A stretch of 64,000 nt of DNA from Oscillospiraceae bacterium (GTDB lineage Bacteria; Bacillota; Clostridia; Oscillospirales; Oscillospiraceae): the NCBI GenBank assembly GCA_017469115.1, contig JAFUGY010000099.1:12079-76078 (forward strand). Direction: 5' to 3'. This document shows positions 46,640-64,000 of the stretch, in pieces. Numbering within the stretch: the first letter of the stretch is position 1; every line of letters begins with the position of its first letter. A program made the position numbers and the translations under genes. The notes beneath the pieces were generated by a model that made no database searches, was not told where the DNA came from, and saw only the letters and a list, made by a program, of their open reading frames with translations.

Positions 46640-47455
46640 TCAGGCGTAGCTGTGGATCCCGGGGAGGAAGGTGTTGACGCCGAGATAGGTAAACATTACG
46701 CAGACAAAACCCACCACGGCAAAGATGGCGGCGGACTTCCCCTGCCAGCCGCGTCGAAGGCGAAGATGCAGGTAAGCTGCATAGACAAGCCATGTGACAA
46801 GAGACCAGGTTTCCTTCGGATCCCAGGACCAGTAGCTTCCCCACGCTCGTTCTGCCCAGATGGCACCGGTGACGATGGTGAAGGTCAGAAACAGAAGCCC
46901 GAGAGAAACGCTGCGGTAACTGATGACGTCCAGCTTTTCCCGGTTTGGAATATGCTGATCTAAAAAACCCTTTTCTTTCATACGGTCACGCAGGAGAAAG
47001 ATGATGGACAGCACAAAGGAAACACCGAAAGAACCGTAAGCAATGATTGCCGTTGAAACATGAAAACCCAGCCAGTTGCTGCGCAGCGCCGGCATCAGCT
47101 CATGCACCTCTTTGCTCTGCATGGCTGCGTAGCCGATGATGACGAAAACCAGCGGGGCGGCAAAAGCGCCGAGCACCGGAAAATGAAATCGCAGCACAAA
47201 AATAAGGCTGACGAGGCAGAGCCCCCAGGCAAATGAGGTTGCAAATTCATACTGGTTGGTAAGCGGGAGTCGACCGGCTCCGATGCCTCTACAGATCAGC
47301 GCGATTGTGTGGAGGACAAAACCGATAATCTGAAGCAGAATTGCCACTCTGGAAAAGGAATCGCGTTTGAAGGCAATAAATAAGAAGTAAAGGATCATTG
47401 CGGCAAAGTAGAGAAGCATAACGATGGTAGAAAGCGTGTTTTCAATCTGCAGCAT
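46640..47455 (-). CDS. ccsA: cytochrome c biogenesis (system II) heme-handling protein CcsA/ResC
   Basis: W-rich motif 'WGSYWSWDPKETWSLVTW' and 8 TM helices. The start was chosen at MLQIEN (ATG 47455) with AAAGGAG 7 nt upstream. The longest ORF reaches 47485. Confidence 0.88.
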   Translation of the reverse strand: MLQIENTLSTIVMLLYFAAMILYFLFIAFKRDSFSRVAILLQIIGFVLHTIALICRGIGAGRLPLTNQYEFATSFAWGLCLVSLIFVLRFHFPVLGAFAAPLVFVIIGYAAMQSKEVHELMPALRSNWLGFHVSTAIIAYGSFGVSFVLSIIFLLRDRMKEKGFLDQHIPNREKLDVISYRSVSLGLLFLTFTIVTGAIWAERAWGSYWSWDPKETWSLVTWLVYAAYLHLRLRRGWQGKSAAIFAVVGFVCVMFTYLGVNTFLPGIHSYA

Positions 47456-48740: not shown

Positions 48741-48756
48741 GGCAGCCCTCCTTTCT

Positions 48757-48799
48757 GAGAAAAATAACAGAAGAGAACAGAGAAACCTATTCTCTTCTG
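48757..48799 (-). terminator. internal terminator-like hairpin between nrfA and resB
   Basis: Minus strand reads CAGAAGAGAA-taggtttctctg-TTCTCTTCTG followed by TTATTTTTCTC, immediately before the resB SD (AAAGGAGG). Confidence 0.55.
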
Positions 48800-48879
48800 C
48801 CGAAAGAGATCTGATTTGTTTCGTGTTCTATGAGGCTAAAACACAAAAAAGGGGGTGTTTGGCAACTGAATACGATCCT

Positions 48880-51582: not shown

Positions 51583-52268
51583 TTCTCAGCGTCTCCTTCC
51601 TCTTTTTCACATGGGGAAGCACAATTACTGCAGCAGCCGTCACATCCGCTTTCCACAAGCTTTTTCTGCCGGGTTTTGATACCAATGGCATTCATAATTG
51701 TGATGATAAAGGCAATGACGAGGAATGCTCCCGGAGGCTGAACAAAGATGCCGATGGGCGGAATGCTCTCCGGCAGAATCTGAGCTCCGAACAGCGTTCC
51801 GTTGCCGATGAGCTCACGGATGGAGCCCGCAATGGTAAGAGAAATGGTGAAGCCAAGGCCCATCCCCAGACCATCCATGGCGGAAACGCCGGGTTCATTT
51901 TTGTTGGCATAAGCTTCCGCGCGGCCGAGGATAATGCAGTTGACGACGATCAGTGGGATATAAATGCCGAGGGCTTCGTAAAGCGAGGGAAGATAAGCTT
52001 CAATCAGCAGTTCTGCTACCGTGACGAGAGAGGCCACAATCACGATGTAAGCCGGAAGACGGACTTCGTCCGGGATCGCTTTGCGCAGGATGGAAATAAC
52101 AATATTGGAGAGAATCAGAACGGCTGTGGTAGAAAGCCCCATGCCGATGCCATTGATGGCGCGGGTTGAAACGGCAAGCGTCGGGCACATGCCGAGCATC
52201 AGAATCATGGTCGGATTTTCTTTGACAATACCGTTATAGAGACGTTCCAGATATTTATTCATCTTCAC
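51579..52268 (-). CDS. rnfE: Rnf complex subunit E (with Cys-rich C-terminal tail)
   Basis: 229 aa with 'NPTMILMLGMCPTLAVST' and 'IPLIVVNCIILGRAEA'. The C-terminal tail is 'SGCDGCCSNCASPCEKEE'. Confidence 0.92.
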   Translation of the reverse strand: MKMNKYLERLYNGIVKENPTMILMLGMCPTLAVSTRAINGIGMGLSTTAVLILSNIVISILRKAIPDEVRLPAYIVIVASLVTVAELLIEAYLPSLYEALGIYIPLIVVNCIILGRAEAYANKNEPGVSAMDGLGMGLGFTISLTIAGSIRELIGNGTLFGAQILPESIPPIGIFVQPPGAFLVIAFIITIMNAIGIKTRQKKLVESGCDGCCSNCASPCEKEEGDAEK

Positions 52269-53848
52269 ATCGCTCCCTTCACAACAGAATAATAGAAGTC
52301 AAGCGCTGCGTTAACAGCATTGACGACTGCCCCGGATGTGGTGGACGCGCCGGATACGGAGTCGATTTCATTTTCAGCCGTAGAACCGCCGGTTTTGTTC
52401 AGAATAAACTGCGTCACGGTTTTCCCACTGAACTGGTCTTTAAAGGCGGGTTCGCCGGCTCGCATACCCATGCCGGGGGTTTCGTTGAGCTCAGTAAAGG
52501 AGATACCGGTAACCGTCCCGTTGCTGTCAATGCCGACGGAAAGCGTGATGTCACCGTCAAAACCGTCTCCACTTGTTACGCTGATTGCATGACCGATGAT
52601 AGATCCGGTGTCATCTTTTCCGATGACGACCTCCCGGATCATGGCACGGCCGAAGTTCGTGCCGTAAATGTCTCCGTCGAGATCTGCCAGTGCTTCTTCA
52701 ACAGCATCATCAAATTCAAAGGAAGCCGCATCCGGTAGAACGGAACGGTAGGAGGCAGCTTTGGCAGCCCGTTTCTGTGCTTCAATGGTGTCCTTCGTCA
52801 TAGCGTAGACGCCGCTGAGAGCAATGCCCGAGATGAGTGCAATCACCGTCAGCACCACAACAGGCTTCGGGATGCTGTCTTTCAGGGATTTCTTTGCTCC
52901 GGCTTCTCCGCTGCGCATTGCAATTGCCTTTCTGGTATAGGCAAATGGCTTCGGGTAGATGAACATATCAATCAGGGGCACAAACAGGTTACCGATGATA
53001 ATGGAATAACTGAAAGAGTCGGATGCGCCGCTTTTGACGCGGAAAAGCCCGCCAAGCACACCGATGATGATGCCATAGACCATTTGCCCGAGCTTGCTGA
53101 CCGGAGATGTGGCATAATCAGATGCCATAAAGAATGCTCCCATGACGACACCGCCGCCGCAGATATGAGCCAACAAATATTTTGGGTCAAATCCCTGACC
53201 GCCGAAGAGCCCCATAAAAACGGTAAAGGAGATCAGAACGGAAAAGCAGATTTCACCGTGAATGATATCCATAGCCCACAGAACAAGCCCGCCGAGGAGC
53301 ATGCAGGCAGTGGAACTGCCGATTACGTCATTCGGCACACCGAGGAACATTTTCGTAATGTTGACGGCTTTGCCCTGCATCAGCATTGCCACCGGGGTGG
53401 CGGAGGAAACGCCGTCAACTGTATAAGTCGTCATGAGGGTGCCGAATGAGATCAGCAGGAAGCACCTTGCTGCAAGAGCGGGGTTCACAAAATTTTTTCC
53501 GAGACCACCGAAACAGCATTTCACAATCAGAATTGCAAATACCGAGCCAAGGATCGGAAGAAACAGAGGAACGCTGGGGGAGAGAGTCAAAGCCAGCATC
53601 AATCCGGTGATAACTGCGCTGCCGTCCTTCCAGGTGTCCGGTTTTTTGGCAAAGCGGTCAAAGAGTAATTCCGTCAACACGGCTGCGACCACCGAACAAG
53701 CCGCAACCAGAAAAGCGTGGAATCCGTTGATGGCGATGCCTACAATGGTTGCCGGGAGCATGGAAAGAATGACGGCCCGCATGATAAACATAGTCGTCCA
53801 TCTGTCCCTTACATGAGGCACGGGCGAGATATTCAATGTTTGATTCAT
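52265..53848 (-). CDS. rnfD: fused Rnf subunits D and G
   Basis: The start at MNQTLNISP forms an ATGA overlap with the rnfC stop. The RnfD part has 'GLGKNFVNPALAAR', 'DGVSSATP' and 'MASDYATSP'. A TM helix is followed by an RnfG FMN-binding domain: 'ETPGMGMRAGEP' and 'IDSVSGASTTSGAV'. Confidence 0.88.
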   Translation of the reverse strand: MNQTLNISPVPHVRDRWTTMFIMRAVILSMLPATIVGIAINGFHAFLVAACSVVAAVLTELLFDRFAKKPDTWKDGSAVITGLMLALTLSPSVPLFLPILGSVFAILIVKCCFGGLGKNFVNPALAARCFLLISFGTLMTTYTVDGVSSATPVAMLMQGKAVNITKMFLGVPNDVIGSSTACMLLGGLVLWAMDIIHGEICFSVLISFTVFMGLFGGQGFDPKYLLAHICGGGVVMGAFFMASDYATSPVSKLGQMVYGIIIGVLGGLFRVKSGASDSFSYSIIIGNLFVPLIDMFIYPKPFAYTRKAIAMRSGEAGAKKSLKDSIPKPVVVLTVIALISGIALSGVYAMTKDTIEAQKRAAKAASYRSVLPDAASFEFDDAVEEALADLDGDIYGTNFGRAMIREVVIGKDDTGSIIGHAISVTSGDGFDGDITLSVGIDSNGTVTGISFTELNETPGMGMRAGEPAFKDQFSGKTVTQFILNKTGGSTAENEIDSVSGASTTSGAVVNAVNAALDFYYSVVKGAM

Positions 53849-55194
53849 TTCTTCCCTCCCACTGCCGCGCGCTTCTGCGCAAGTATTTCTGCTTTCGTCC
53901 GCATAAAGGTCTGTGTTAAAGGCCGCTTGGCCGGGCAGATATAGCTGCAGCAGCCGCACTGGATACACTCAAGCCCGTAGAGCTTCTTTTCATAGCGCTC
54001 CAGATCTCCTGCCTGCACGGCATCAGCCAGCATTTGCGGTAGAAGCCCCACCGGGCATACTGTTGTGCACCTTCCGCACCGCAGGCACGACGTCATGATA
54101 GACGCTGCAACCTCGCTTTGATCCACTGTCACGAGGGCGACGCCGCTGCTTGTTTTCTGAATCGGCACATCGAGGTTCGGAATCGCGATGCCCATAATCG
54201 GCCCGCCGACGATGGCTTTTTTTACAACCGCGCCTTCTTTAAGGCCGCCGGCTGCTTCGATCAATTCAGAAAAGCTCATCCCATCCCGCACGATAAAGTT
54301 ACCCGGGGTTTTCACGGCATCCCCCGTTAAGGTGAACGTATGGGTGAACAACGGTTCCAGATAGGCGACAGCACGGTCAATGGCATAAATGGTGCAGGCA
54401 TTCTGCACAATGCATCCGACCTCTGCCGGAAGCATGGAGGAGGGATAATTGATCCCGGCGACGGTTTCAATCAGCATTTTTTCCCCGCCCTGGCCGTATT
54501 TTGCTTTGGCTGCGAGCACAGAGAGTTTATCATTCCCAGCCGAAGCCTTCCGCATGGCTTCAATGGCTTCGGGCTTGTTGTCTTCAATCACGATAACGCC
54601 TTCAGCGTTCGGAAACAGGCGGAGCATTAGAGAAAGGCCTTCTGCAATGGAGTCTGCCTGGGAGCGCATCAGCTGATCCGTCCCGGTGAGATAAGGCTCA
54701 CATTCCGAACCGTTGGCAATGACATAACGGATAGCATCGGGATTTTTGGGAGAAAGCTTTACATGGGTGGGGAATCCTGCCCCGCCCAGGCCAACAATCC
54801 CGGCCTCCCGGATTCTCCGGAGAATTTCTTCTTTGCTGAGAGAAGAAATATCCTGCCTTACTCCGATGCCTTCCATGCGGGAATACTGCCCGTCATTGTC
54901 GACGACAATGCATTCAACCATCTGTCCGTTCTGTACACGGCGTTTTTCCACAGCCTTCACTTTACCCGAGCAGGAAGAGATGACATGCGCGGAAATCAAA
55001 CCATCGGCTTCTCCGATTTTCTGGCCGGCGAGAACTTCATCCCCCTTTTTTACGAGAGGTTTAGCGGGTTTGCCGATATGCTGCAAAAGGGGGAAAACCA
55101 TTTCACCTTTCGCATTCAGGACACGCAGCGGGACATCGCGTGTCAGCTCCTTGTGGCTGATCGGATGTACACCGCCGCGAAACGTGTTTTTCAC
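53845..55194 (-). CDS. rnfC: Rnf complex subunit C
   Basis: 'TFRGGVHP', 'GLGGAGFP', 'NGSECEPYLT' and two ferredoxin motifs 'CLRCGRCTTVCP' / 'CIQCGCCSYICP'. The start was chosen at GTG 55194 (AAAGGAG with 8-nt spacer). The longest ORF reaches 55203. Confidence 0.92.
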   Translation of the reverse strand: MKNTFRGGVHPISHKELTRDVPLRVLNAKGEMVFPLLQHIGKPAKPLVKKGDEVLAGQKIGEADGLISAHVISSCSGKVKAVEKRRVQNGQMVECIVVDNDGQYSRMEGIGVRQDISSLSKEEILRRIREAGIVGLGGAGFPTHVKLSPKNPDAIRYVIANGSECEPYLTGTDQLMRSQADSIAEGLSLMLRLFPNAEGVIVIEDNKPEAIEAMRKASAGNDKLSVLAAKAKYGQGGEKMLIETVAGINYPSSMLPAEVGCIVQNACTIYAIDRAVAYLEPLFTHTFTLTGDAVKTPGNFIVRDGMSFSELIEAAGGLKEGAVVKKAIVGGPIMGIAIPNLDVPIQKTSSGVALVTVDQSEVAASIMTSCLRCGRCTTVCPVGLLPQMLADAVQAGDLERYEKKLYGLECIQCGCCSYICPAKRPLTQTFMRTKAEILAQKRAAVGGKK

Positions 55195-55255
55195 GAACCT
55201 CACTCCTTTCAGAGATTTAAGAGAACTGCAGGTGAGAGAAACAGCAGTTTTGTCT

Positions 55256-55284
55256 ATTTTAACAAAGGCAGTGTGGTTTGTAAA
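55256..55284 (-). promoter_or_regulatory. sigma-A-type promoter of the rnf-nrfA operon
   Basis: Minus strand reads TTTACA - 17 nt - TAAAAT, about 60 nt upstream of the rnfC start. Confidence 0.5.
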
Positions 55285-55297
55285 TGCTAATTCACAT
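55278..55297 (-). promoter_or_regulatory. Rex-like operator candidate overlapping the -35
   Basis: Minus strand reads ATGTGAA-ttagca-TTTACAA, against the Rex consensus TTGTGAA-N6-TTCACAA (12 of 14 half-site positions match). Confidence 0.4.
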
Positions 55298-55404
55298 AAA
55301 AATCGTAAAAAGTGCTAAATAAGTGTGAAAAACAAATCGATCTCTGAATTTCTGTACAGAAAGTTCAGAAAATTGTTTTTTCGGTGAGTCTTGTTGCGAT
55401 TGTG

Positions 55405-55434
55405 TTGACGGAAACGGCAGAAATAGAGTATAAT
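55405..55434 (+). promoter_or_regulatory. sigma-A-type promoter of the XpaC-like gene
   Basis: TTGACG - 18 nt - TATAAT, 36 nt upstream of ATG 55470. Confidence 0.55.
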
Positions 55435-55469
55435 ACTTTCAATTATTTTTATGAGCAGGTGTGCGGTCT

Positions 55470-56681
55470 ATGGACAACAGAAATAACAAACACAATCAAA
55501 AAACGGAGTTTTTCTCCTGGTTTATTATCATTCTCCTGTTTGCCGGAGGCGGGTGGCCGATTGCGCTTTTCCTCCTGATCCGGAAGCTGTTTTCCTCTGA
55601 TATCCCGCGCTCGCAGCGGAGGGAAGCCCCGTCTCTTTCCAGAGAAGAGGAGCTTCGGCAGCAGCAGGAAGAGCTGGAGCGTATGAAAAAGAAGGTTCAG
55701 CAGAAGGAGACCTCACAGAAAGCAAAGCAGGCAATCCGGTCTTTTCTGCAGTCACCAAAGGAGGATAAGACGACATCCTGGGTGCTGACCATTGCAGGCG
55801 CGTTCATTATGGTTGCAGCTGTTTTTTGGGGAATCAACGTGGCTGCACCGAGCGGATCGGTTTATTCCATGGCCACAGCAGTGGCTTCACTTCTCGGTGG
55901 CGGATGTATGCTTGCAAGCGGCATTCTGACGAAGCGCGCAATGCAGCGGTACACGGCTTATCTTGCCATCATTGGGCCGAACGAAGCGATGGAGATTGAA
56001 ACGGTCGCCAAAAAAGTCGGCGTAAGCCGGAAGCAGGCAGAACGGGATCTGCAGAAAATGATTGAGAAGGGCTACTTCGGTGAGGCTGCTTACATTAACA
56101 AGGAACTCGGCTATATCTTTATGAGCAGCCGGGCAGATGAGGAGTTGGCCAGGGCGAGGGAAGCCGCAATGAAGAAGACGCGCGAGGCTTCGAAAAAAGA
56201 AGCTGTGAAGCAAAATGCGGAGGCTTATGACCAGATTCTTGCCAAAATCAGAGACCTGAATGACAGAATTCCCGATGCCGCAATGACGGAAAAGATTTCG
56301 CAGATCGAGTCCATCACCAGGGAGATTTTCCGGGCGGTTGAGCAGCAGCCGGAAAAACGCGGAAAAATCGACCGGTTTATGAGTTACTTCCTGCCGACAA
56401 CGCTGAAGCTGCTGGAGTCGTATGCAAATCTTGAAAAGACCAATATTGACGGAAAAAACATCAACCAGAGCATGCGCTCCATTGAAATCGCCATGGATAC
56501 GGTGGTCGACGGATTCAAACATCAGCTTGATGAACTCTATAAATCCGATGCTGTTTCAATTGAGACCGAAATTGACGTTTTAACCAAAATGATCAACAGA
56601 GAAACTGCTACCGCACAACAGGAATTCGGCCTCGGCGGGCAGGCTGTTCAGACGGCTCCGCAGCAGAAAAAACAGGAGTAG
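55470..56681 (+). CDS. XpaC-like (5-bromo-4-chloroindolyl phosphate hydrolysis family) membrane protein with internal wHTH-like segment
   Basis: N-terminal and central TM helices plus a coiled-coil. It contains 'IETVAKKVGVSRKQAERDLQKMIEKGYF'. The C-terminal 'IDRFMSYFLPTTLKLLESYANLEK' is typical of the XpaC family. Confidence 0.55.
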   Translation: MDNRNNKHNQKTEFFSWFIIILLFAGGGWPIALFLLIRKLFSSDIPRSQRREAPSLSREEELRQQQEELERMKKKVQQKETSQKAKQAIRSFLQSPKEDKTTSWVLTIAGAFIMVAAVFWGINVAAPSGSVYSMATAVASLLGGGCMLASGILTKRAMQRYTAYLAIIGPNEAMEIETVAKKVGVSRKQAERDLQKMIEKGYFGEAAYINKELGYIFMSSRADEELARAREAAMKKTREASKKEAVKQNAEAYDQILAKIRDLNDRIPDAAMTEKISQIESITREIFRAVEQQPEKRGKIDRFMSYFLPTTLKLLESYANLEKTNIDGKNINQSMRSIEIAMDTVVDGFKHQLDELYKSDAVSIETEIDVLTKMINRETATAQQEFGLGGQAVQTAPQQKKQE

Positions 56682-56787: not shown

Positions 56788-56816
56788 TTGACATTCCTGC
56801 GGTTTGATGATACTAT
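56788..56816 (+). promoter_or_regulatory. sigma-A-type promoter
   Basis: TTGACA - 17 nt - TACTAT, 50 nt upstream of ATG 56866. Confidence 0.6.
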
Positions 56817-56865
56817 GACAATGACCAAATCCATTGGATCAAATACACTTATAGGAGAAAACAAA

Positions 56866-57864
56866 ATGAAAAAAATTCTCGCAATCACGCTTCTTCTCTG
56901 CATGATGCTCGTCATGGGTGCATGGTCTGCTTCCGGAGAAGAGTACACTCTTGGTATGGGTGTTGTTGTCAGCACGGATTCTTCCGATACCAACAATGCA
57001 CAGGTTGATGCAACGGTTGCTGCCGTTGTTCTCGACAAGGACGGCAAGATTGCTGCCTGCCGGATTGACTGCGCACAGAGCAAGATGGATGTTACCGACG
57101 GCGAAGTCGACGCAGAGAAGGAATTCCTCTCCAAAGTCGAGCTGAAGGAAGACTACAACATGGTCAAGTTCTCCGATGCTACTCTCGAGTGGTATCAGCA
57201 GGCTGCCAACTTCGAGGAGTTCTGCGTCGGTAAGACGGCTGACGAAGTCCTCGCCACTGAAACTGTTCTCAACGATGAAGGCCACACCGTTTTTGTCGAT
57301 GAGACGCTCCACGCTTCTGTTTCTATTTCTGTTGCTGACATGCAGCAGGCTGTTGCCAAGGCATGTGCTGACGATCAGGCTGTTACCTTCACTGCCAACG
57401 GTGATGTAACCTTCGGTCTCGCCTGCAACACGGAAGCCACCGAGTCTGTTGCCGCAACCGACGATGCTGACGGTGTTGTCAAGATGTACACCGATTTTGC
57501 TGCTGCTGTTGTGGATGCTGACGGCAAAGTTCTCGCAAACCTCCAGGATGCTATCCAGCCTCAGATCGTCATTGATATTGACGGCGAGATTGGCGACATT
57601 ACCTTCCGCGGCACAAAGCGTGAGCTGAAGGAAGACTATAACATGGTCAAGTTCTCCGATGCTACTCTCGAGTGGTATCAGCAGGCTGCCAACTTTGAAG
57701 CCTATGCCAACGGCAAGACGGCTGAAGAGCTCGCCGGCGTTGAGACGGTTGTCAACGAAGAAGGCCACCAGGTCTTTGCAGATGAAACGCTGCTTGCTTC
57801 CGTTTCCATCAGCATCGACGGTATGACCGACGTCCTTGTCAAGGCAATCGGCTACGCACGCTGA
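56866..57864 (+). CDS. exported tandem FMN-bind-like domain protein (PplA-like) with non-canonical flavinylation motif
   Basis: The start at MKKILAITLLL has AGGAG upstream and a signal peptide. Two homologous ~150-aa halves each contain '(E/R)LKEDYNMVKFSDATLEWYQQAANFE..GKTA(D/E)E(V/L)' and end in 'DETL(H/L)ASVSIS', where FMN_bind domains carry D..SGAT.TS. Confidence 0.55.
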   Translation: MKKILAITLLLCMMLVMGAWSASGEEYTLGMGVVVSTDSSDTNNAQVDATVAAVVLDKDGKIAACRIDCAQSKMDVTDGEVDAEKEFLSKVELKEDYNMVKFSDATLEWYQQAANFEEFCVGKTADEVLATETVLNDEGHTVFVDETLHASVSISVADMQQAVAKACADDQAVTFTANGDVTFGLACNTEATESVAATDDADGVVKMYTDFAAAVVDADGKVLANLQDAIQPQIVIDIDGEIGDITFRGTKRELKEDYNMVKFSDATLEWYQQAANFEAYANGKTAEELAGVETVVNEEGHQVFADETLLASVSISIDGMTDVLVKAIGYAR

Positions 57865-57888
57865 ACTTATCATCAATAAAAACAGGAG

Positions 57889-58965
57889 ATGGTTTCAATT
57901 CATTCCGGCAGATGGTTTCGTTTCTTTATCCTGATGATGGCGGCTGCGCTCCTTCTGGCGGGCTGCGGCAGTCAGGTTCAGGAAACCAAACCCATTGAGC
58001 CGAAAGGGAAGGTTTATTTTACCTATTTTGATACGGTCTCCTACATCTATGATTATTCTGGCGATTCGGCAGAACGGTTTGACGACCGTTCTGCCGAAAC
58101 ATCACTTCTGCTGGAAGAATATCACCGTCTTTTTGATATTTACCACGAATATGCAGGCATCAACAACCTCTGCACACTGAACAAAAAGGCAGGGGGGGAA
58201 GCCCTTCCTGTTGACGAAAAGCTGATCGATTTTCTCCTGTATGCCAAAGAGATGGAGAATTTGACACACGGAGAAATGAATGTGATGCTCGGTGCTGTCC
58301 TGCGTTTGTGGCATGAATGCCGGGAGGAAGCGTCCGAGTCCCCCTCCAAGGCCAGAATTCCGACAGAAGAGGCTCTGTACGCAGCTTCTGCCCATACGTC
58401 GATTGATCTGCTGGAGATCGACCCGGAGAAGAAAACTGTGCGTATTTCTGACCCGGAAGCATCCATAGATGTCGGAGCACTGGGGAAGGGCTATGCCACA
58501 GAAATGGCAGCCCGTATGCTCGAGGAGAAAGGTGCTCTTGGCTATGTGCTCAACATCGGGGGGAATATCCGCATCATCGGGTCCCGCCCGGACGGTACCG
58601 GCTGGAAGACCGGCATTCGCAATCCGTCTGATCCTGACGGTGCTTTTGCCATGCAGATCTATATTTCCGACACGGCATGCGTCAGTTCCGGCGTCTATGA
58701 GCGGTTTTTTGTGGCGGAAGGAAAACGCTGGCATCACATCATCGACCCGGATACGCTTTATCCGGCTGCAACTTTCAGTGCACTGACGGTCATCACAAAA
58801 GACAGCGGCCTTGCTGATGCCCTCTCCACGGCGTTATTCTGTATGGATTACGAGCAGAGTCGCAGCCTGGTGGATTCGCTGGACGGGGTTGAGGTATGCT
58901 GGTTCTTCCCGGATGGAGAACAGCGAATGACGGAAGGATTTTCCAAACTCATCGTAAAAGAATAG
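57889..58965 (+). CDS. apbE: FAD:protein FMN transferase (ApbE family) lipoprotein
   Basis: 358 aa with lipobox 'LLLAGCGS', 'GEMNVMLGAV', 'IDVGALGKGYA', 'NIGGNIR' and 'ACVSSGVYERFF...HHIIDPDT'. Confidence 0.88.
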   Translation: MVSIHSGRWFRFFILMMAAALLLAGCGSQVQETKPIEPKGKVYFTYFDTVSYIYDYSGDSAERFDDRSAETSLLLEEYHRLFDIYHEYAGINNLCTLNKKAGGEALPVDEKLIDFLLYAKEMENLTHGEMNVMLGAVLRLWHECREEASESPSKARIPTEEALYAASAHTSIDLLEIDPEKKTVRISDPEASIDVGALGKGYATEMAARMLEEKGALGYVLNIGGNIRIIGSRPDGTGWKTGIRNPSDPDGAFAMQIYISDTACVSSGVYERFFVAEGKRWHHIIDPDTLYPAATFSALTVITKDSGLADALSTALFCMDYEQSRSLVDSLDGVEVCWFFPDGEQRMTEGFSKLIVKE

Positions 58966-59032
58966 GTTTTTCGTATACAAAGATTCTATAGATACAGTTC
59001 CTTATTATTAACAGGAAAGCAGGGATTCATCC

Positions 59033-60370
59033 ATGGCTTTATTTACCAAAAAAATCTCAGCTGTAAAAGTTCCGCATCATAAAAATACAGCTGCACTCGC
59101 ATCTGTTGTTGCACCGCCACCTCCGGAAGTGCTCATTCCCACAAACATGCAGTCCGGAGATGCATGTGTGCCTGTTGTCTCAGTCGGAGATACGGTGAAA
59201 GTCGGGCAGGTGATTGCCAAGGCAGGCGGCAGAAATTCAGTTCCGCTGCATGCAACGGTATCCGGTACCGTAACAGCCATTGAACCGTATAAACTGACCG
59301 GTCGTGCCGCTGAGGCGATCCGCATTCAGTCTGACGGGAAAATGGAACGCGACCCCAACCTCGCGCCTCCCGTTGTCAGTGATCTTGACGGCTTTCTTCA
59401 GGCTGTGAATGATTCCGGCGTGGTCGGTCTTGGCGGCGCAGCATTCCCGGTATGGGCCAAGCTGGACGCAATTCGGAAAAATCCAATCCCCACAGTGCTT
59501 GTCAATGGGGCAGAGTGTGAGCCCTTTATCACAAGTGACCACCGCATGATGCTCGAGCATGCCGACTGGATTAAAAAAGGCATCGAGCTTCTGAAGGAAT
59601 ATCTCCATTCCGAGGAGTTCATCATCGGCATCGAAAAGAATAAGCCGGATGCCATTGAGCATCTGACACAGTTCTTTGCCGAAGACAACACCGTGCGCGT
59701 GATGCCGCTGGAAAGCGTCTATCCCCAGGGGGCCAAGCAGGTTCTGCTCTACAATGCCACCGGCAAAGTTGTCGGACCCGGACAGCGTCTTGCATCTCTC
59801 GGCGTAATCATCATCAATGTTACAAGCCTTGCCATGGTCGGCCGCTATTTTACCGACGGGACGCCTCTTGTCAGCCGCAGCATTACGGTGGACGGTTCTG
59901 CCGTTTCCGAGCCGAAAAATATCGAGTTCCCGATCGGAACGCCGATTTCCTACGTTTTTGAACAGTGCGGCGGGTTGAAGAATTCCCCACGTAAAATCAT
60001 CTACGGCGGCGCGATGATGGGCAAAACGGTGACGGATCTGAACGCCCCTGTCCTCAAGGCAACCAATGCCATTCTAGCTTTTGGCGAAGAGGACAGCAAA
60101 AAGAAGCCGGCCGCTCCCTGCATTCACTGCGGAAGATGCGTCGAAGCCTGCCCCCTGAATCTGAATCCGACGGAGTTCTCCCACGCGATGGAAATTGATG
60201 ACGAGGATCGCCGTGCAGAAATTCTGACCCGAGAGCAGGTCTCCCTTTGCATGGAATGCGGATGCTGCTCCTTTGTCTGCCCGGCTCACAGGCCGCTGGC
60301 GGAAAACAATACCGCGGCCAGAGGCTTCATCCGGAAGTACAATGCCGCAAAGAAAGAAGGAGGGAAGTGA
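59033..60370 (+). CDS. rnfC: RnfC-like subunit (second cluster)
   Basis: 445 aa with 'GLGGAAFP', 'NGAECEPFITSDHR' and ferredoxin motifs 'CIHCGRCVEACP' / 'CMECGCCSFVCP'. Confidence 0.88.
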   Translation: MALFTKKISAVKVPHHKNTAALASVVAPPPPEVLIPTNMQSGDACVPVVSVGDTVKVGQVIAKAGGRNSVPLHATVSGTVTAIEPYKLTGRAAEAIRIQSDGKMERDPNLAPPVVSDLDGFLQAVNDSGVVGLGGAAFPVWAKLDAIRKNPIPTVLVNGAECEPFITSDHRMMLEHADWIKKGIELLKEYLHSEEFIIGIEKNKPDAIEHLTQFFAEDNTVRVMPLESVYPQGAKQVLLYNATGKVVGPGQRLASLGVIIINVTSLAMVGRYFTDGTPLVSRSITVDGSAVSEPKNIEFPIGTPISYVFEQCGGLKNSPRKIIYGGAMMGKTVTDLNAPVLKATNAILAFGEEDSKKKPAAPCIHCGRCVEACPLNLNPTEFSHAMEIDDEDRRAEILTREQVSLCMECGCCSFVCPAHRPLAENNTAARGFIRKYNAAKKEGGK

Positions 60371-60371
60371 T

Positions 60372-61310
60372 ATGGAAGTGAATCTGATCTCTTCAGCTTC
60401 TCCGCATATCCACAGTGGTTCTTCCAGCCGCCTGATTATGGCTGATGTGATTCTTGCACTGGTTCCTGCAGCCATTGCTTCCGTTGTCCTGTTTGGCACT
60501 TATGCCCTTTGGATGATCGTGGTGTGTGTGGCTTCTGCGGTCATTTCCGAGTTTGTGTTCAATTCCGTTATCGGAAAAGAACAGACGCTCGGCGATCTCA
60601 GTGCTGTGGTGACGGGGCTTCTCCTTGCACTGAATCTCAGCACCAATGTTGCGCTCTGGCAGTGTGCGCTCGGGGCTTGTTTTGCTATCATTGTGGTAAA
60701 ATGCCTGTTTGGAGGCATGGGCAACAACTTTGCCAACCCTGCCATTACTGCCCGTGTGTTTCTGCTTCTTGCCTTCTCCTCTGTCGCAGGCGGGGCCAAT
60801 CCTGTCTTTCGTGCGGCAGCAGATGCCGTCAGTTCCGCAACCCCGCTGGAACTGATTGCCCAGAAAAGCACCGATGCTCTCCCCGCACTGAAAGATATGT
60901 TCCTCGGCCTGCGTGGCGGTACCATTGGCGAAACGTGCATTCTCGCGCTCCTGGTCGGCTATGTTTATCTGGTTGCCCGCAAGGTGATCAAATGGTACAT
61001 CCCTGCCATCTTCGTATGCACGGTGTTTGTTTGTTCCTGGCTGATTACGGGCAGCCTGAATCTCGCCCTGTACGAGATCCTCTCCGGAGGCCTTGTTCTG
61101 GGGGCAGTGTTTATGGCGACGGATTATGTCACAACACCGATTCATGCCGGTGGGCGGATGCTGTTTGCTCTCGGCTGCGGTCTCATCACAGTGGCGATCC
61201 GTTTCGTGTTCTCCTATCCAGAAGGCGTTTCCTTCTCAATCCTGTTGATGAACATCCTCACTCCGTGGATTGAAAAGCTTACGCGCAACAAGCCGCTGGG
61301 AGGTGTCTGA
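60372..61310 (+). CDS. rnfD: RnfD-like subunit (second cluster)
   Basis: The start at MEVNLISSASPHIH is one nt after the rnfC stop. It contains 'GMGNNFANPAITAR', 'DAVSSATP' and 'MATDYVTTP'. Confidence 0.88.
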   Translation: MEVNLISSASPHIHSGSSSRLIMADVILALVPAAIASVVLFGTYALWMIVVCVASAVISEFVFNSVIGKEQTLGDLSAVVTGLLLALNLSTNVALWQCALGACFAIIVVKCLFGGMGNNFANPAITARVFLLLAFSSVAGGANPVFRAAADAVSSATPLELIAQKSTDALPALKDMFLGLRGGTIGETCILALLVGYVYLVARKVIKWYIPAIFVCTVFVCSWLITGSLNLALYEILSGGLVLGAVFMATDYVTTPIHAGGRMLFALGCGLITVAIRFVFSYPEGVSFSILLMNILTPWIEKLTRNKPLGGV

Positions 61311-61311
61311 T

Positions 61312-62610
61312 ATGGAAGTTAAAAACAATGGTCTGACGAAGGGCCTTTTGACCCTGGTTCTGATTGTAGCCGTTTTTTTCTGCATTCTTTTCGGCATCAA
61401 CTCTTATACTGCCCCCATCATTGAATGGAATGACAACGCTGCTCTTCTGGCTCCTCTTTTCAAGCTTCTGCCCGATGCGCCAGGATTCGAGCTGCTGTAT
61501 GACTATACCGTTCCTGATAATTCTTCCTTGGCAAATATTCCGTCTACTGTGCGGTATATCCATGCCATTGCGGAAAACGGCGGTTATGCCGTTCAGCTTT
61601 CCACAACCGAAGGCTTTACCGGCGACCCGATTGATCTCTCCTTTGCGGTTGATCCCGACGGAAAGATTCTGAACGCTCAGGTAGATGCTTATGCTGATAC
61701 CAAGGATATGGGTGTTGATGACTATCCGCTCACCTATATCGGCCAGGATTCTGCTCTTTCCGATGTCAGCATTGTTGCCGGGGTTACGTATTCTTCTTCT
61801 GCATTCAAACGCGCAATTGCTGACGGCTTCCTGGCTCTGACGGAGAACGGCCTTGTGGCTGAGGGATATAAAGATCCTGTTCAAGCCCTAACGGAAGTCC
61901 TTCCCCTCGTCTTCCCGGGGATTGCCAATAATGCCGGTGTTGTTCAGGCGGAAGAAACACAACCCACCGGTGCGCTTCTCAGTTCTGCAATGAAATCCAC
62001 CATCGATACCGGTATGGCGTACTTTGCCGGCGAAGGAGATGATCTCTATCTGATTACGGTCAATGCCTTCGGCGTGGTCAAAGCTTACGATACCAAGGGT
62101 CGTGACATTACCGATTCTGCTCCTGCAGAAGCTCTGGAGCAGGCAAAGGCAGATGCCGAAGCTTCTGCTGCTGACTTCCTGAAAAAAGATACCCGGGCAT
62201 TCAAAAAGCTGACGGGAGACGATATGGAGCTCACCGAGCTTTCTCTCAACACCTTTAATTCCGTGACGGGTGCTTACAAGCTTCTCTCCGGCGGTAATAC
62301 CTATTATGGCTTCACTTCCCGTACTTTTGGCTTTGGTGATATGGCAATTGTCACACGCTATGTGCTGGATGAAAACGGCGCAATCGTGAAAATGAATGCC
62401 GATGAGCTGATCCTCGAAAAGGACTACTTCTCCAATTACACGCTGGATGAAGCCTCTTACAAAGAAGGTTTCCAGGGTCTCACAGAGAGCACCTTTACCG
62501 GGGATGAAACGCTGATCACCGGTGCTACCATGACTTCAAATGCCGTGAAGTCTGCAGTCCGGGACATCTTTGAAGCCTTTCACGATCTCAAAGAGAACGG
62601 AGGGATCTGA
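61312..62610 (+). CDS. rnfG: RnfG-like subunit with duplicated FMN-binding domain (432 aa)
   Basis: The start at MEVKNNG is followed by a TM helix. The first FMN_bind-like domain ends 'VSIVAGVTYSSSAFKRAI'. The second ends with the canonical 'LITGATMTSNAVKSAV'. Confidence 0.75.
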   Translation: MEVKNNGLTKGLLTLVLIVAVFFCILFGINSYTAPIIEWNDNAALLAPLFKLLPDAPGFELLYDYTVPDNSSLANIPSTVRYIHAIAENGGYAVQLSTTEGFTGDPIDLSFAVDPDGKILNAQVDAYADTKDMGVDDYPLTYIGQDSALSDVSIVAGVTYSSSAFKRAIADGFLALTENGLVAEGYKDPVQALTEVLPLVFPGIANNAGVVQAEETQPTGALLSSAMKSTIDTGMAYFAGEGDDLYLITVNAFGVVKAYDTKGRDITDSAPAEALEQAKADAEASAADFLKKDTRAFKKLTGDDMELTELSLNTFNSVTGAYKLLSGGNTYYGFTSRTFGFGDMAIVTRYVLDENGAIVKMNADELILEKDYFSNYTLDEASYKEGFQGLTESTFTGDETLITGATMTSNAVKSAVRDIFEAFHDLKENGGI

Positions 62611-62612
62611 TC

Positions 62613-63272
62613 ATGACGGAACATAAATCTTTGCGTGCCTTTGCAGCGGAAAATCCAGCTCTGATCCTTGTTCTGGGGATTTGTCCGCTCTATGCTTCTA
62701 CGGTGGACGTCCGTGCAGCCTTTGCCATGGGATGCCTTGTGTTGGCAGCGCTGCTGGTTTCCGGGTTGATCATGGCGCTTCTGAAGCGCTGCATCCCCCA
62801 GCAGTTTACCCTCCCCGCAGCCTTTCTTGTCTGTGCCGGGGTTGTTTCAGTGTTTGAGTTGCTCTTCCATGCCTGGTTTCCGGATATTTACAAGATTCTC
62901 GGAGTCTATGTTTCTGCCCTATCCGTTAATCTTCTGCTGGTTGCCGCTGCGGCAGACAGCTGTGAGCAAAAGGCCGAAAAGGCAATCGGTCAGGCTTTGC
63001 TGCTGGGGTTCATTTTCCTCGCAAGTCTGCTTGCCGTTGCTGTCATTCGCGAAGTCTTTGGCAACGCAAGCTTTGCCGGGATTGAAATTCCCTCTCTGAA
63101 GGACTATCGAATCAATGTGCTCCTCCAACCCGGCGGTGCGCTGCTGATCGGGGCTTTTCTTGCCGCTGCGTTAAATGCAGTTGCTGCAAAAGCACTCTCG
63201 TCCGATTCTTTCTCCGGATGGTTCGGTTCTTCCTTCCCGAATGCTGAAAAAGAAGAGGAGAGTGAATCATGA
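62613..63272 (+). CDS. rnfE: RnfE-like subunit (second cluster; one of two conserved Cys lost)
   Basis: 219 aa. 'ENPALILVLGICPLYAST' retains its Cys, but 'SALSVNLLLVAAA' replaces the ...VVNC..LG motif. Confidence 0.8.
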   Translation: MTEHKSLRAFAAENPALILVLGICPLYASTVDVRAAFAMGCLVLAALLVSGLIMALLKRCIPQQFTLPAAFLVCAGVVSVFELLFHAWFPDIYKILGVYVSALSVNLLLVAAAADSCEQKAEKAIGQALLLGFIFLASLLAVAVIREVFGNASFAGIEIPSLKDYRINVLLQPGGALLIGAFLAAALNAVAAKALSSDSFSGWFGSSFPNAEKEEESES

Positions 63273-63844
63273 TGGAGTCCTATACTGTAAAATCTTTGAT
63301 TCTGTTGATCATTGGCGGTGCACTGGCGGGCAACTACGCGCTGGAAAAGCTGATGGGTGCTGCGCCTGTTTTCGGTCTTTCCCGTAAGGAGAAAGCTCTT
63401 CCTGCCCTTGGCATCGGCGTGCTGGTTGTTATGCTCCTTACGGCGCCCTTGCTCCGGGCAGTGCACACGGCTTTCCTTGCCCCTGCAAATCTGCTCTATT
63501 TGCAGAATCTCTGCTTTACCGCGCTGATTCTTTGTGTAGCCTATCTGGTTTCTCTGCTTGCCAAAGCTGTTCTGAAGAAGCCTCTGGGGCCGTATTTCCT
63601 GATTCTTGCGGTCAACAGCGCTGTCTTTGGGCTGGCAGTCAACGTTATCACGGACGGGCTCTCCCTCACCGCAACCATTCTGACGGCCTTTGGCGTCGGC
63701 CTCGGATATTTGTTTACACTGTTTGTATTGGCCGGTGTGCGGGAAAAGGTTGACGATTTTTATGTGCCGAAGGCATTTCGCGGGCTCCCGGTTCAGCTGC
63801 TGGCAGCGGCAATCATTTCCATGGCGCTGCTTGGGTTCAAATGA
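63269..63844 (+). CDS. rnfA: RnfA-like subunit (second cluster; both conserved Cys lost)
   Basis: 191 aa. 'LEKLMGAAPVFGLS' replaces ..FLG.C.FLGVS, and 'LILAVNSAVFGLAV' replaces ..TNCAVLGVAL. Confidence 0.8.
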   Translation: MMESYTVKSLILLIIGGALAGNYALEKLMGAAPVFGLSRKEKALPALGIGVLVVMLLTAPLLRAVHTAFLAPANLLYLQNLCFTALILCVAYLVSLLAKAVLKKPLGPYFLILAVNSAVFGLAVNVITDGLSLTATILTAFGVGLGYLFTLFVLAGVREKVDDFYVPKAFRGLPVQLLAAAIISMALLGFK

Positions 63845-64000
63845 GTTTTGACCGTAAAGTACTCCGCCGGGATCTCCTGCTGATTCTGTTCTTCCTGCTT
63901 CTTTCTGCTGCGATGTTCGCTTTTTCGCACTTCCGGCAGCAAGAAGGAGGATGGGCAGTTGTCACTGTCAATTCCAAAGAAGTAGCCCGGTATTCTCTCC
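63841..64000 (+). CDS. NusG-domain-II (DUF1312)-like membrane protein, 5' part only (runs off window)
   Basis: ATGA overlap with the rnfA-like stop. The sequence is 'MSFDRKVLRRDLLLILFFLLLSAAMFAF...GGWAVVTVNSKEVARYSL', a TM anchor followed by the characteristic '(V/I)...(V/I)..(D/N)GKEV.RYSL' start of NusG_II proteins. Confidence 0.5.
   Translation, partial: MSFDRKVLRRDLLLILFFLLLSAAMFAFSHFRQQEGGWAVVTVNSKEVARYSL

What the first reader, a model, noticed from the sequence alone, without database searches (positions are those of the whole stretch)
56866..58965. ApbE lipoprotein paired with a PplA-like two-domain exported protein whose flavinylation motif is replaced by L(H/L)AS
**Seen:**
- A promoter (TTGACA-17-TACTAT) drives an exported protein built from two homologous halves, followed 24 nt later by apbE.
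- Each half resembles the long form of FMN_bind domains ('..LKEDYNMVKFSDATLEWYQQA..F...GKTA.E.').
- Where D..SGAT.TS is expected, the halves read 'DETLHASVSIS' and 'DETLLASVSIS'.
- No [ST]GA[ST] occurs anywhere in the protein.

**Established:** Listeria PplA is a two-FMN-domain lipoprotein flavinylated by an ApbE-like enzyme for extracellular electron transfer. ApbE substrates normally carry [S/T]GA[S/T].

**Inference:** one option is a new variant acceptor motif, with Ser as the acceptor. The other is non-covalent flavin binding. In either case the protein is positioned between two Rnf clusters.
Basis: partly seen in the sequence, partly recalled or inferred. Interest (0 to 1): 0.62.

Follow-up and report, generated by a model that had tools for sequence, protein, structure and literature searches.

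The report
Variant-motif flavin carrier heading Rnf-like operon
The gene encodes an exported protein made of two divergent flavin-binding domains that most likely carries electrons outside the cell for a stripped-down Rnf complex, and its unusual attachment motif means that current surveys of flavin-tagged proteins miss this large family.

Summary
Window 56866..57864 encodes a 332-aa exported protein with two homologous halves and no [ST]GA[ST]. A lipoprotein ApbE follows 24 nt later.

The halves are FMN_bind relatives of the long "FMN-bind2" subtype. Pfam itself misses them, but a family profile hits the FMN_bind structure 2KZX at E 2.3e-8.

The equivalent of [S/T]-G-A-[S/T] is A-S-V-S (residues 150-153 and 311-314), not L(H/L)AS. 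Across 552 related domains the acceptor column is only Thr (281) or Ser (271).

The family consensus is A-[G/S]-[C/V]-[T/S]. The operon's own RnfG domain 1 carries the same variant (A-G-V-T).

In all sufficiently long loci of 87 examined, from two phyla, the gene heads a fixed operon: carrier, ApbE, RnfC, RnfD, long RnfG, RnfE, RnfA, EetA, EetB. This operon has no RnfB, and RnfA/RnfE have lost the [2Fe-2S] cysteines.

Best reading: a PplA-like carrier, covalently flavinylated at a variant site, that takes electrons out of an NADH-fed, Rnf-derived one-way conduit. Flavinylation itself is untested.

The parts
56788..56816 (+). Sigma-70-type promoter: TTGACA, 17 nt, TACTAT, with a TG extension
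   Evidence: Best-scoring site in the region at 10/12 matches. The operon starts here; upstream genes differ between related loci.
56853..56857 (+). Ribosome-binding site AGGAG, 8 nt before the ATG
   Evidence: Read directly from the sequence.
56866..57864 (+). Exported protein of 332 aa with two FMN-bind2-like domains (the target)
   Evidence: More than 2,000 homologues, all unnamed or 'hypothetical'. AlphaFold2 pLDDT 93.4, pTM 0.88.
56866..56934 (+). Signal peptide, residues 1 to ~21-23 (MKKILAITLLLCMMLVMGAWSA/S). SPase-I type, with no lipobox in this copy.
   Evidence: 72% of family members carry a lipobox instead.
56944..57375 (+). Domain 1, residues ~27-170
   Evidence: Family domain model, E 2.5e-58.
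57313..57324 (+). Variant flavinylation-type motif A150-S151-V152-S153. S153 is the predicted acceptor.
   Evidence: Register. Acceptor column is Thr or Ser in 552 of 552 domains.
57433..57861 (+). Domain 2, residues ~190-332
   Evidence: Family domain model, E 2.7e-56. Single-domain AlphaFold2 model pLDDT 95.9.
57796..57807 (+). Variant motif A311-S312-V313-S314. S314 is the predicted acceptor.
   Evidence: Same evidence as for motif 1.
57889..58965 (+). apbE: FAD:protein FMN transferase, a lipoprotein (LLAGC, Cys26)
   Evidence: PF02424 at 9.4e-61; NF007774 at 5.4e-35. Immediately downstream of the target in all related loci whose contig continues except the Rnf-less L089, where a RibU-like gene intervenes.
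59033..60370 (+). rnfC-like gene: NADH/FMN module plus two 4Fe-4S motifs
   Evidence: Complex1_51K, RnfC_N, SLBB, Fer4.
60372..61310 (+). rnfD-like gene, with the flavinylation site D-A-V-S-S-A-T-P-L kept
   Evidence: A-T-P-L is invariant in 73 of 73 orthologues.
61312..62610 (+). Long rnfG (432 aa) with two FMN_bind domains. Domain 1 reads V-A-G-V-T; domain 2 reads T-G-A-T.
   Evidence: The domain 1 Thr is invariant in 72 of 72, with Val at the 'Ala' position in 46 of 72.
62613..63272 (+). rnfE-like gene lacking one of its two [2Fe-2S] cysteines
63269..63844 (+). rnfA-like gene lacking both [2Fe-2S] cysteines
63841..64000 (+). Start of an eetA-like (NusG_II) gene, cut by the window end. In relatives an eetB-like FAD-exporter subunit follows.
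   Evidence: EetB function from PMC9973259.

Best explanation
The target is an extracytoplasmic electron carrier built from two FMN-bind2-type domains, a PplA/Cad-like architecture.

Each domain most likely receives a covalent FMN from the ApbE encoded 24 nt downstream. The acceptors would be Ser153 and Ser314, within a family-specific variant of the ApbE motif: A-[G/S]-[C/V]-[T/S] in place of [S/T]-G-A-[S/T]. FAD for this reaction is exported by the EetA/EetB-type module at the end of the same operon.

The carrier is the first gene of a conserved Rnf-derived operon that lacks RnfB and the [2Fe-2S] ligands of RnfA/RnfE. The ferredoxin branch of Rnf is therefore gone.

The inferred electron path is NADH -> RnfC (FMN, 4Fe-4S) -> RnfD flavin -> RnfG domain 1 -> RnfG domain 2 -> carrier flavins -> an external or cell-wall acceptor, or a flavin-dependent reductase.

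Shown here: homology, motif register, conservation and operon structure. Inferred: covalent flavinylation, direction of electron flow and the identity of the acceptor.
For: **1. Homology to FMN_bind**
- The family profile hits PDB 2KZX at E 2.3e-8, and the matched 2KZX fragment scores on PF04205 at 1.6e-5. 2KZX is listed as a PF04205 member in PMC4348036.
- hhalign against RnfG domain 1 gives P 8.4e-6.
- Five of 40 divergent family domains touch PF04205 weakly.
- P0221 fuses a canonical PF04205 domain (3.5e-15) to a pair of family domains.

**2. FMN-bind2 features (PMC11334425)**
- Domains are ~140-160 aa.
- Copy numbers are even: 2 domains in 245 proteins, 4 in 11, 6 in 2.
- The two-domain model is rigid, with pTM 0.88.

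**3. The acceptor position**
- The acceptor-aligned column is Thr 281 / Ser 271 and nothing else.
- In 122 domains below 50% identity it is Thr 112 / Ser 10, among the seven most conserved columns.
- SGAT, SSAT and AGAT occur at the same column in rare members. They sit beside SSVT in one protein, P0166.

**4. The operon's RnfG domain 1**
- This domain passes Pfam's FMN_bind threshold and carries A-G-V-T with Thr invariant in 72 of 72. The cognate ApbE therefore probably has to serve this motif class anyway.

**5. Tolerance of the changes**
- G-to-A and A-to-V substitutions leave about 50% flavinylation, D-to-A has a minor effect, and Ser is accepted (PMC12052999).
- RnfD sites in this window read S-S-A-T.

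**6. Genomic context**
- The order target-ApbE-RnfCDGEA-EetA-EetB holds in all sufficiently long loci among 86 from Oscillospiraceae-type genomes, and in a Sphaerochaetaceae genome.
- Family members also sit next to ApbE and EetB without Rnf. In one case two FMN_bind + FAD_binding_2 reductases are alongside, which is the position PplA holds in Listeria.

**7. Loss of the ferredoxin branch**
- No RnfB is present. Three of the four [2Fe-2S] Cys positions are never Cys, and the fourth is Cys in 24 of 69 (ligand roles from PMC12174285).

**8. Expression**
- Ruminant-gut metatranscriptome contigs 85-95% identical to the gene cover it.
Against: - No experiment exists. Covalent FMN has never been shown on an A-S-V-S or A-G-C-T site.
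- In the window's copy all three motif positions before the acceptor differ from the canonical motif. The canonical Asp at -6 is Thr, and the acceptor is the less favoured Ser.
- The window protein does not hit Pfam FMN_bind at E <= 1.
- Foldseek with the two-domain and the one-domain models found no FMN_bind structure.
- In the Rnf-type operons the presence of ApbE and EetAB is already explained by RnfD and RnfG. Guilt by association is therefore weaker there than it looks.
- Direction of electron flow and the acceptor are unknown. No reductase is encoded in the operon.
Confidence: 0.6

Rival explanations
1. The protein is a degenerate FMN-bind2 pair that is no longer covalently flavinylated. 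It binds FMN or riboflavin non-covalently, or acts as a flavin shuttle or dock. The neighbouring ApbE and EetAB serve only RnfD and RnfG.
For: - The motif departs from D-x-x-[S/T]-G-A-[S/T] at every position except the acceptor in this copy.
- Only 2 of 552 family domains are canonical.
- Pfam FMN_bind does not score the window protein.
- RnfD (S-S-A-T) and RnfG domain 2 (T-G-A-T) give ApbE ordinary substrates in the same operon.
Against: - A non-acceptor position would not stay strictly Ser/Thr across 552 domains down to about 25-30% identity.
- The same variant motif sits in RnfG domain 1. In studied Rnf and Nqr complexes the equivalent FMN is covalently attached to RnfG/NqrC and lies on the electron path (PMC12174285).
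- In locus L091 EetB-family protein-ApbE are contiguous and no other substrate gene is visible on the short contig.
- Canonical and variant sites alternate within single proteins.
Confidence: 0.22
2. The protein has a non-redox role. It could be a cell-surface or substrate-binding protein, or a chaperone that hands exported FAD from EetB to ApbE, reusing the FMN_bind fold.
For: - No functional annotation exists anywhere; sources that name it call it 'hypothetical protein'.
- One relative places the domain pair at the end of a 1,574-aa dockerin/LRR protein in a cohesin/dockerin cluster.
- Transcript contigs appear more abundant than those of apbE or rnfC.
Against: - Constant linkage to ApbE and EetB across three different gene-cluster types.
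- Fusion to a canonical FMN_bind domain in P0221.
- The invariant hydroxyl at the flavinylation position.
Confidence: 0.08
3. One reading: the motif equivalent is L(H/L)AS, and its Ser (S151/S312) is the acceptor.
For: Counting from the conserved Asp of D-E-T-L gives D-x-x-L-H-A-S, which matches the spacing of D-x-x-S-G-A-T.
Against: - That column is Gly in 181 domains and Ser in only 324 of 552.
- All profile alignments place G of S-G-A-T on it.
- The conserved Asp lies at -8. The canonical -6 position is D, T, A or E.
Confidence: 0.03

Closest known systems
FMN-bind2 two-domain proteins (Huang, Meheust, Barquera and Light 2024, mSystems; PMC11334425)
   Same: - Extended FMN_bind subtype of about 160 aa.
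- Occurs in even numbers (2, 4, 6) and is predicted to pair into a pseudo-symmetric unit.
- Extracytosolic, and given no InterPro/Pfam identifier in that paper's table.
   Different: - That paper treats the sites as flavinylated and does not report a non-[S/T]GA[S/T] consensus.
- Here the consensus is A-[G/S]-[C/V]-[T/S], and the family is tied to an RnfB-less operon.
Listeria PplA / Enterococcus Cad (cAD1 precursor lipoprotein)
   Same: - Exported protein with two homologous FMN-binding domains.
- Encoded beside an ApbE-type transferase and EetA/EetB.
- Acts, or is predicted to act, as the extracytosolic electron carrier (PMC9973259, PMC7074142).
   Different: - PplA and Cad carry canonical S/TGAT sites and take electrons from Ndh2 and demethylmenaquinone.
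- Here the sites are A-S-V-S, the donor is an Rnf-derived complex, and this copy is not a lipoprotein.
- PMC7074142 reports cad-apbE pairs only in genomes without rnf.
- Sequence homology to PplA itself was not tested.
2KZX, an uncharacterised FMN_bind (PF04205) protein of Clostridium thermocellum
   Same: Closest solved structure by sequence, at E 2.3e-8. It shares the Y-x-M-V...E-W-x-x-Q-A helix region and the terminal helix.
   Different: Single domain of 131 aa with a canonical D-A-I-S-G-A-T site. It was solved as the apo form (PMC4348036).
Multi-flavinylated RnfG clusters and two-subunit Nqr/Rnf-like systems (Meheust et al. 2021, eLife; PMC8238504)
   Same: Extra extracytosolic flavin domains attached to an Rnf or Nqr core, proposed to send electrons one way to outside acceptors.
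   Different: [quoted passage not shown]
- Their Nqr/Rnf-like class has an RnfD-NqrF fusion and no RnfC, RnfE or RnfA.
- This operon keeps RnfC, D, G, E and A but has lost RnfB and the Fe-S ligands.
MmcA-Rnf of Methanosarcina acetivorans
   Same: By the cited titles and abstracts, that Rnf contains a multihaem cytochrome subunit, MmcA, which supports extracellular electron transfer.
   Different: The cofactors there are haems rather than flavins, and that Rnf keeps RnfB. That mmcA is encoded with the rnf genes rests on my own knowledge and was not checked here. The likeness is functional only.

Membership tests
Pfam FMN_bind (PF04205) superfamily | Significant match to the PF04205 model | tested here: not met
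   No hit at E <= 1 for the window protein. Five of 40 divergent family domains hit weakly, best 0.0011.
Pfam FMN_bind (PF04205) superfamily | Profile-level homology to an accepted member | tested here: met
   Family profile against 2KZX, E 2.3e-8. The matched 2KZX fragment scores on PF04205 at 1.6e-5, above the cut-off. hhalign against RnfG domain 1 gives P 8.4e-6, probability 83%.
Pfam FMN_bind (PF04205) superfamily | Fold similarity to solved FMN_bind structures | tested here: inconclusive
ApbE substrates (D-x-x-[S/T]-G-A-[S/T]) | Ser or Thr at the acceptor position | tested here: met
   S153 and S314. The column is Thr or Ser in 552 of 552 domains.
ApbE substrates (D-x-x-[S/T]-G-A-[S/T]) | Canonical [S/T]-G-A before the acceptor, and Asp at -6 | tested here: not met
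   The window reads T-L-[H/L]-A-S-V-S. Family consensus is A-[G/S]-[C/V]. Asp sits at -8 in 494 of 562 domains and at -6 in only 149.
ApbE substrates (D-x-x-[S/T]-G-A-[S/T]) | Covalent phosphoester-linked FMN | not testable with these tools
   Needs mass spectrometry or in-gel fluorescence after co-expression with ApbE.
ApbE substrates (D-x-x-[S/T]-G-A-[S/T]) | Extracytosolic location and genomic linkage to apbE | tested here: met
   Signal peptide. apbE lies immediately downstream in the Rnf-type loci and L088/L091, and one gene further on in L089.
FMN-bind2 subtype (PMC11334425) | Domain of about 160 aa with insertions relative to FMN-bind1, in even copy numbers | tested here: met
   Domains of ~140-150 aa. 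Extra strands and helices lie between the core strands and the GKT helix. Copy numbers are 2, 4 and 6.
FMN-bind2 subtype (PMC11334425) | Two domains pack through their beta-sheets into a pseudo-symmetric unit | tested here: inconclusive
   The full-length model has pTM 0.88 and pLDDT 93.4, implying a fixed arrangement. Coordinates could not be inspected.
FMN-bind2 subtype (PMC11334425) | Sequence relatedness to the published examples (NTW96865.1, WP_312031774.1) | not tested
   The sequences were not retrievable. They were not among the cluster members read.
PplA/Cad lipoproteins | Lipoprotein with two FMN-binding domains carrying S/TGAT | tested here: not met
   Two domains are present, but this copy has no lipobox and no S/TGAT.
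PplA/Cad lipoproteins | EET-type locus with Ndh2, DmkA/B, EetA/B and FmnA/B | tested here: inconclusive
   ApbE (FmnB-like), EetA and EetB are present. Ndh2 and Dmk are absent, and RnfCDGEA stands in their place.
ApbE (PF02424), second gene | Full-length match to the ApbE model, lipoprotein signal | tested here: met
   PF02424 at 9.4e-61 over profile positions 18-265 of 266. Lipobox LLAGC.
Canonical Rnf complex (RnfABCDGE) | RnfB present, and four Cys in RnfA/RnfE holding the [2Fe-2S] cluster | tested here: not met
   No RnfB in the operon in any locus. Three of the four Cys positions are never Cys in about 68 orthologues. Ligand roles from PMC12174285.

The most novel reading that the evidence does not exclude
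ApbE enzymes of this lineage recognise a second, unreported acceptor code, A-[G/S]-[C/V]-[T/S]. This code defines a very large family of multi-flavin carriers that motif- and Pfam-based surveys cannot see.

Together with an Rnf that has shed RnfB and its membrane [2Fe-2S] cluster, the family forms an NADH-driven outward electron wire in which every cofactor beyond RnfC's Fe-S clusters is a flavin. That wire has up to five covalent FMN sites: RnfD, RnfG domains 1 and 2, and the carrier's two domains. It appears to be transcribed in rumen and gut Oscillospiraceae.
Probability: 0.4. Interest if true: 0.8.

Novelty: new variant of a known kind. Interest (0 to 1): 0.66.

Why it matters
- **Surveys undercount.** Surveys of extracytosolic flavinylation find substrates through Pfam FMN_bind and the [S/T]GA[S/T] motif. 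This family has at least 1,214 clusters at 50% identity and more than 2,000 direct hits, and everywhere a source names it the name is 'hypothetical protein'. It escapes both filters. The flavinylated proteome of gut and rumen Clostridia is therefore probably undercounted.
- **A testable rule.** If Ser153 and Ser314 are modified, the recognition rules of ApbE widen in a defined way: Ala at position 1, Ser at the Gly position, Val or Cys at the Ala position. This also bears on flavin-tagging applications.
- **A possible new route.** The operon suggests a distinct way for fermentative anaerobes to dispose of NADH electrons outside the cell. It would use an Rnf derivative that has lost its ferredoxin arm.

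Tried and rejected
- **Direct family scans.** Pfam and NCBIfam scans of the target gave nothing usable. The best hit, TbpB_B_D at E 7.6e-4, is below its cut-off and was rejected as spurious.
- **Fold search.** Foldseek against the PDB returned only shape-level noise for the two-domain model (MHC-like and YmcC-like platforms) and for the single-domain model. No NqrC, RnfG, 2KZX or 3O6U appeared. Fold evidence is therefore absent, not supportive.
L(H/L)AS was rejected on column statistics.
- **Link to the published FMN-bind2 example.** Cluster look-ups did not return NTW96865.1 or WP_312031774.1.
- **NrfA as the acceptor.** I asked whether the neighbouring NrfA-type cytochrome could be the conserved acceptor. 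NrfA, ResB and CcsA are absent within 10 kb of the operon in 86 other loci. The adjacency to the first Rnf cluster ends at window 55470 in the closest relative. Rejected as a general partner.
- **RNA evidence.** Only assembled metatranscriptome contigs from relatives at 85-95% identity were available. They show transcription of the gene family. They give no transcript ends and no reliable ratios.
- **Literature.** Searches found no description of this motif variant or of an RnfB-less RnfCDGEA-EetAB operon.
Full report
**What is in the sequence**

Window 56866..57864 (+) is an ORF of 332 codons. It is preceded by AGGAG and by TTGACA-17-TACTAT with a TG extension at 56788..56816. That site is the best promoter-like match between 56500 and 64000.

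The product starts with a signal peptide, MKKILAITLLLCMMLVMGAWSA/S. It consists of two homologous halves that align over about 140 residues at about 49% identity, with a local score of 315. It contains DETLHASVSIS from residue 145 and DETLLASVSIS from residue 306, and no [ST]GA[ST].

Twenty-four nucleotides after the stop codon begins a 358-codon gene. It matches Pfam ApbE end to end (9.4e-61) and has the lipobox LLAGC. Both flanking Rnf clusters are real.

**What the halves are**

Pfam and NCBIfam give no usable hit for the protein. Public sources call its relatives 'hypothetical protein', including RefSeq WP_322184153.1 of Neglectibacter caecimuris.

The family is large. A word-indexed search gave 2,038 hits. 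An exhaustive search of a library clustered at 50% identity gave 1,214 representatives, 778 of them at E <= 1e-10.

I built a domain model from the two halves and iterated it over 270 family proteins. It finds 562 domains: two per protein in 245 cases, four in 11 and six in 2.

Several results link the domain to FMN_bind:
- A profile of 40 divergent domains hits one solved structure significantly: 2KZX of Clostridium thermocellum, E 2.3e-8.
- 2KZX is an accepted member of Pfam FMN_bind (PMC4348036), and the matched fragment scores above the Pfam cut-off (1.6e-5).
- hhalign of the family against the first FMN_bind domain of the operon's own RnfG gives P 8.4e-6 and probability 83%.
- Five of 40 divergent family domains touch PF04205 weakly.
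- One relative, P0221, fuses a canonical PF04205 domain (3.5e-15) to a pair of family domains.

Three properties match the 'FMN-bind2' subtype described by Huang et al. 2024. These are the domain length, the even copy numbers and the rigid two-domain model. That paper's table gives the subtype no InterPro identifier.

**The motif register**

Every alignment to a canonical site puts [S/T]-G-A-[S/T] on A-S-V-S, not on L(H/L)AS:
- 2KZX: I-S-G-A-T.
- 8P2B: H-S-G-A-T.
- RnfG domain 1: V-A-G-V-T.
- RnfG domain 2: I-T-G-A-T.

Column statistics agree:
- The position two residues later is Thr in 281 and Ser in 271, with no other residue.
- In 122 domains below 50% mutual identity this column is Thr 112 / Ser 10. 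It ranks among the seven most conserved columns.
- The family's commonest four-residue motifs are AGCT (139), ASCS (122) and ASVS (107). Canonical [ST]GA[ST] occurs in 2 of 552.
- Single proteins mix forms. P0166 reads SGAT, SSVT, SSAT, SSVT in its four domains.
- The well-conserved Asp lies at -8. The canonical -6 position is D, T, A or E.

Published mutagenesis suggests these changes are tolerated. G-to-A and A-to-V leave about 50% flavinylation, D-to-A has a minor effect, and Ser is accepted though less favoured (PMC12052999).

**Genomic context**

The gene is not simply 'between two Rnf clusters'. It is the first gene of the second one.

Among 86 related loci, mostly rumen and gut Oscillospiraceae genomes, every locus long enough to show it has the same order: target, ApbE, RnfC, RnfD, a long RnfG, RnfE, RnfA, then a NusG_II protein and an Hpre_diP_synt_I protein. 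A Sphaerochaetaceae genome has the same operon behind a six-domain family member, followed by ECF ATPase and T-component genes.

PF07456 is EetB, the FAD-exporting ECF subunit of Listeria, and eetA is its usual neighbour (PMC9973259). The window ends inside the eetA-like gene, which starts at 63841.

The Rnf part of the operon is degenerate:
- No RnfB is present in these operons.
- The four cysteines that hold the membrane [2Fe-2S] cluster of RnfA/RnfE (PMC12174285) are present in the window's first cluster. In the second cluster three of them are replaced, by Leu in RnfE and by Ala and Ser in RnfA.
- Across about 68 orthologues those three positions are never Cys, and the fourth is Cys in 24 of 69.
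- RnfC keeps its NADH/FMN domain and two 4Fe-4S motifs.
- RnfD keeps D-x-x-S-[S/G]-A-T-P-L.

The long RnfG has two FMN_bind domains. The first passes Pfam's threshold and reads V-A-G-V-T, with Thr invariant in 72 of 72. The second reads [S/A/T]-G-A-T. The variant motif class is thus not peculiar to the target. It also sits in RnfG, the subunit that carries a covalently bound FMN on the electron path in studied Rnf complexes.

Family members also occur without Rnf:
- In a Clostridiaceae genome a four-domain member lies among EetA, EetB, two FMN_bind + FAD_binding_2 reductases, a RibU-like subunit and ApbE.
- In another locus EetB, a four-domain member and ApbE are contiguous.
- A third variant has EetA, EetB, a family member, ApbE, RnfC, RnfD and a short RnfG, with no RnfE or RnfA.
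- One relative places the pair at the end of a dockerin/LRR protein.

**Mechanism**

The best-supported reading is a PplA-like extracytosolic flavin carrier. EetA/EetB export FAD. ApbE transfers FMN to Ser153 and Ser314, and to RnfD and both RnfG domains.

Electrons from NADH enter at RnfC and pass to RnfD and RnfG. The RnfA/E-RnfB return branch is gone, so they leave through RnfG domain 2 and the carrier to an external acceptor or reductase.

The homology, register, conservation and operon structure are shown here. Covalent attachment, direction of flow and the acceptor are inferred. Confidence is about 0.6 for the whole statement, about 0.95 for FMN_bind relatedness and about 0.7 for covalent flavinylation.

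The main rival, at about 0.2, is a non-covalent or degenerate domain pair with ApbE serving only RnfD and RnfG. The strict Ser/Thr column and the Rnf-free ApbE/EetB contexts argue against it.

**Expression**

Four ruminant-gut metatranscriptomes hold contigs 85-95% identical to the gene. Assembler depths over the gene are well above those over apbE and rnfC. This shows that the gene family is transcribed in vivo and nothing more precise.

**Comparison and novelty**

The fold class (FMN-bind2) and the general idea of multi-flavin extracytosolic carriers, including multi-flavinylated RnfG, are published (PMC8238504, PMC11334425). I found no description of three things:
- the family-wide A-[G/S]-[C/V]-[T/S] consensus;
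- the fact that neither Pfam FMN_bind nor the motif search detects the family;
- its fixed position at the head of an RnfB-less, Cys-less Rnf operon with EetAB.

It is therefore a new variant of a known kind. It is of moderate to good interest because it makes a specific extension of ApbE specificity directly testable.

Noticed in passing
window 62613..63844 (rnfE-like, rnfA-like): Three of the four cysteines that hold the membrane [2Fe-2S] cluster in canonical RnfA/RnfE are replaced (Leu, Ala, Ser). Across about 68 orthologues these positions are never Cys. RnfB is absent from the operon. The first cluster's RnfE and RnfA keep all four.
   Followed up: yes
window 61312..62610 (long rnfG): A 432-aa RnfG has two FMN_bind domains. 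The first carries V-A-G-V-T (Thr invariant in 72 of 72 orthologues) and the second T-G-A-T. A Sphaerochaetaceae relative has a 649-aa RnfG with the first module duplicated.
   Followed up: yes
window 46640..50160 (-): An NrfA-type pentahaem cytochrome c552 (CLTCK plus four CxxCH; PF02335 at 6.5e-76) lies directly downstream of the canonical rnfC-DG-E-A-B cluster, with ResB and CcsA cytochrome-maturation genes. No NrfH was seen. This is an unusual pairing for a Clostridia-type genome. It is not linked to the target operon in other loci.
   Followed up: partly
window 52265..53968 (-): In the first Rnf cluster, RnfD and RnfG are fused in one ORF (PF03116 plus PF04205, with a canonical S-G-A-S site). 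The listed GTG start overlaps rnfC, so the true start is probably the internal Met (MNQTLNIS...).
   Followed up: no
window 56866..56934: This copy and its closest relatives (P0001-P0011) have an SPase-I type signal (…GAWSA/SG). About 72% of the family have a lipobox, so the lipid anchor was lost in this clade.
   Followed up: partly
window 55204..55470: Similarity to the closest related genome (L007, about 82% nucleotide identity) begins at 55470. The canonical Rnf cluster upstream is not adjacent there. The juxtaposition of the two Rnf clusters is specific to this genome, or is an assembly join.
   Followed up: partly
window 56854..60400: In four ruminant-gut metatranscriptomes, contigs over the target gene have word depths of roughly 10-200, against 0-10 over apbE. 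This may point to differential mRNA abundance within the operon. The data are contigs from 85-95% identical relatives, so the comparison is only indicative.
   Followed up: partly
L089 387..10998; L090 7320..12044; P0221: Family domains occur in other settings. One is beside two FMN_bind + FAD_binding_2 reductases, RibU-like, EetAB and ApbE without Rnf. One is at the C-terminus of a 1,574-aa dockerin/LRR protein in a cohesin/dockerin cluster. One is fused behind a canonical FMN_bind domain.
   Followed up: partly
family motif column -1 (window V152 and V313): The residue before the acceptor is Cys in 347 of 562 domains and Val in 188. A conserved Cys next to a presumed flavinylated Thr has no explanation yet.
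   Followed up: no
window 55461..56681 (+): The upstream gene encodes a membrane protein with a Halogen_Hydrol (XpaC-like, PF10112) domain at 2.2e-18. It is conserved next to the operon in the closest relative but not in others.
   Followed up: no
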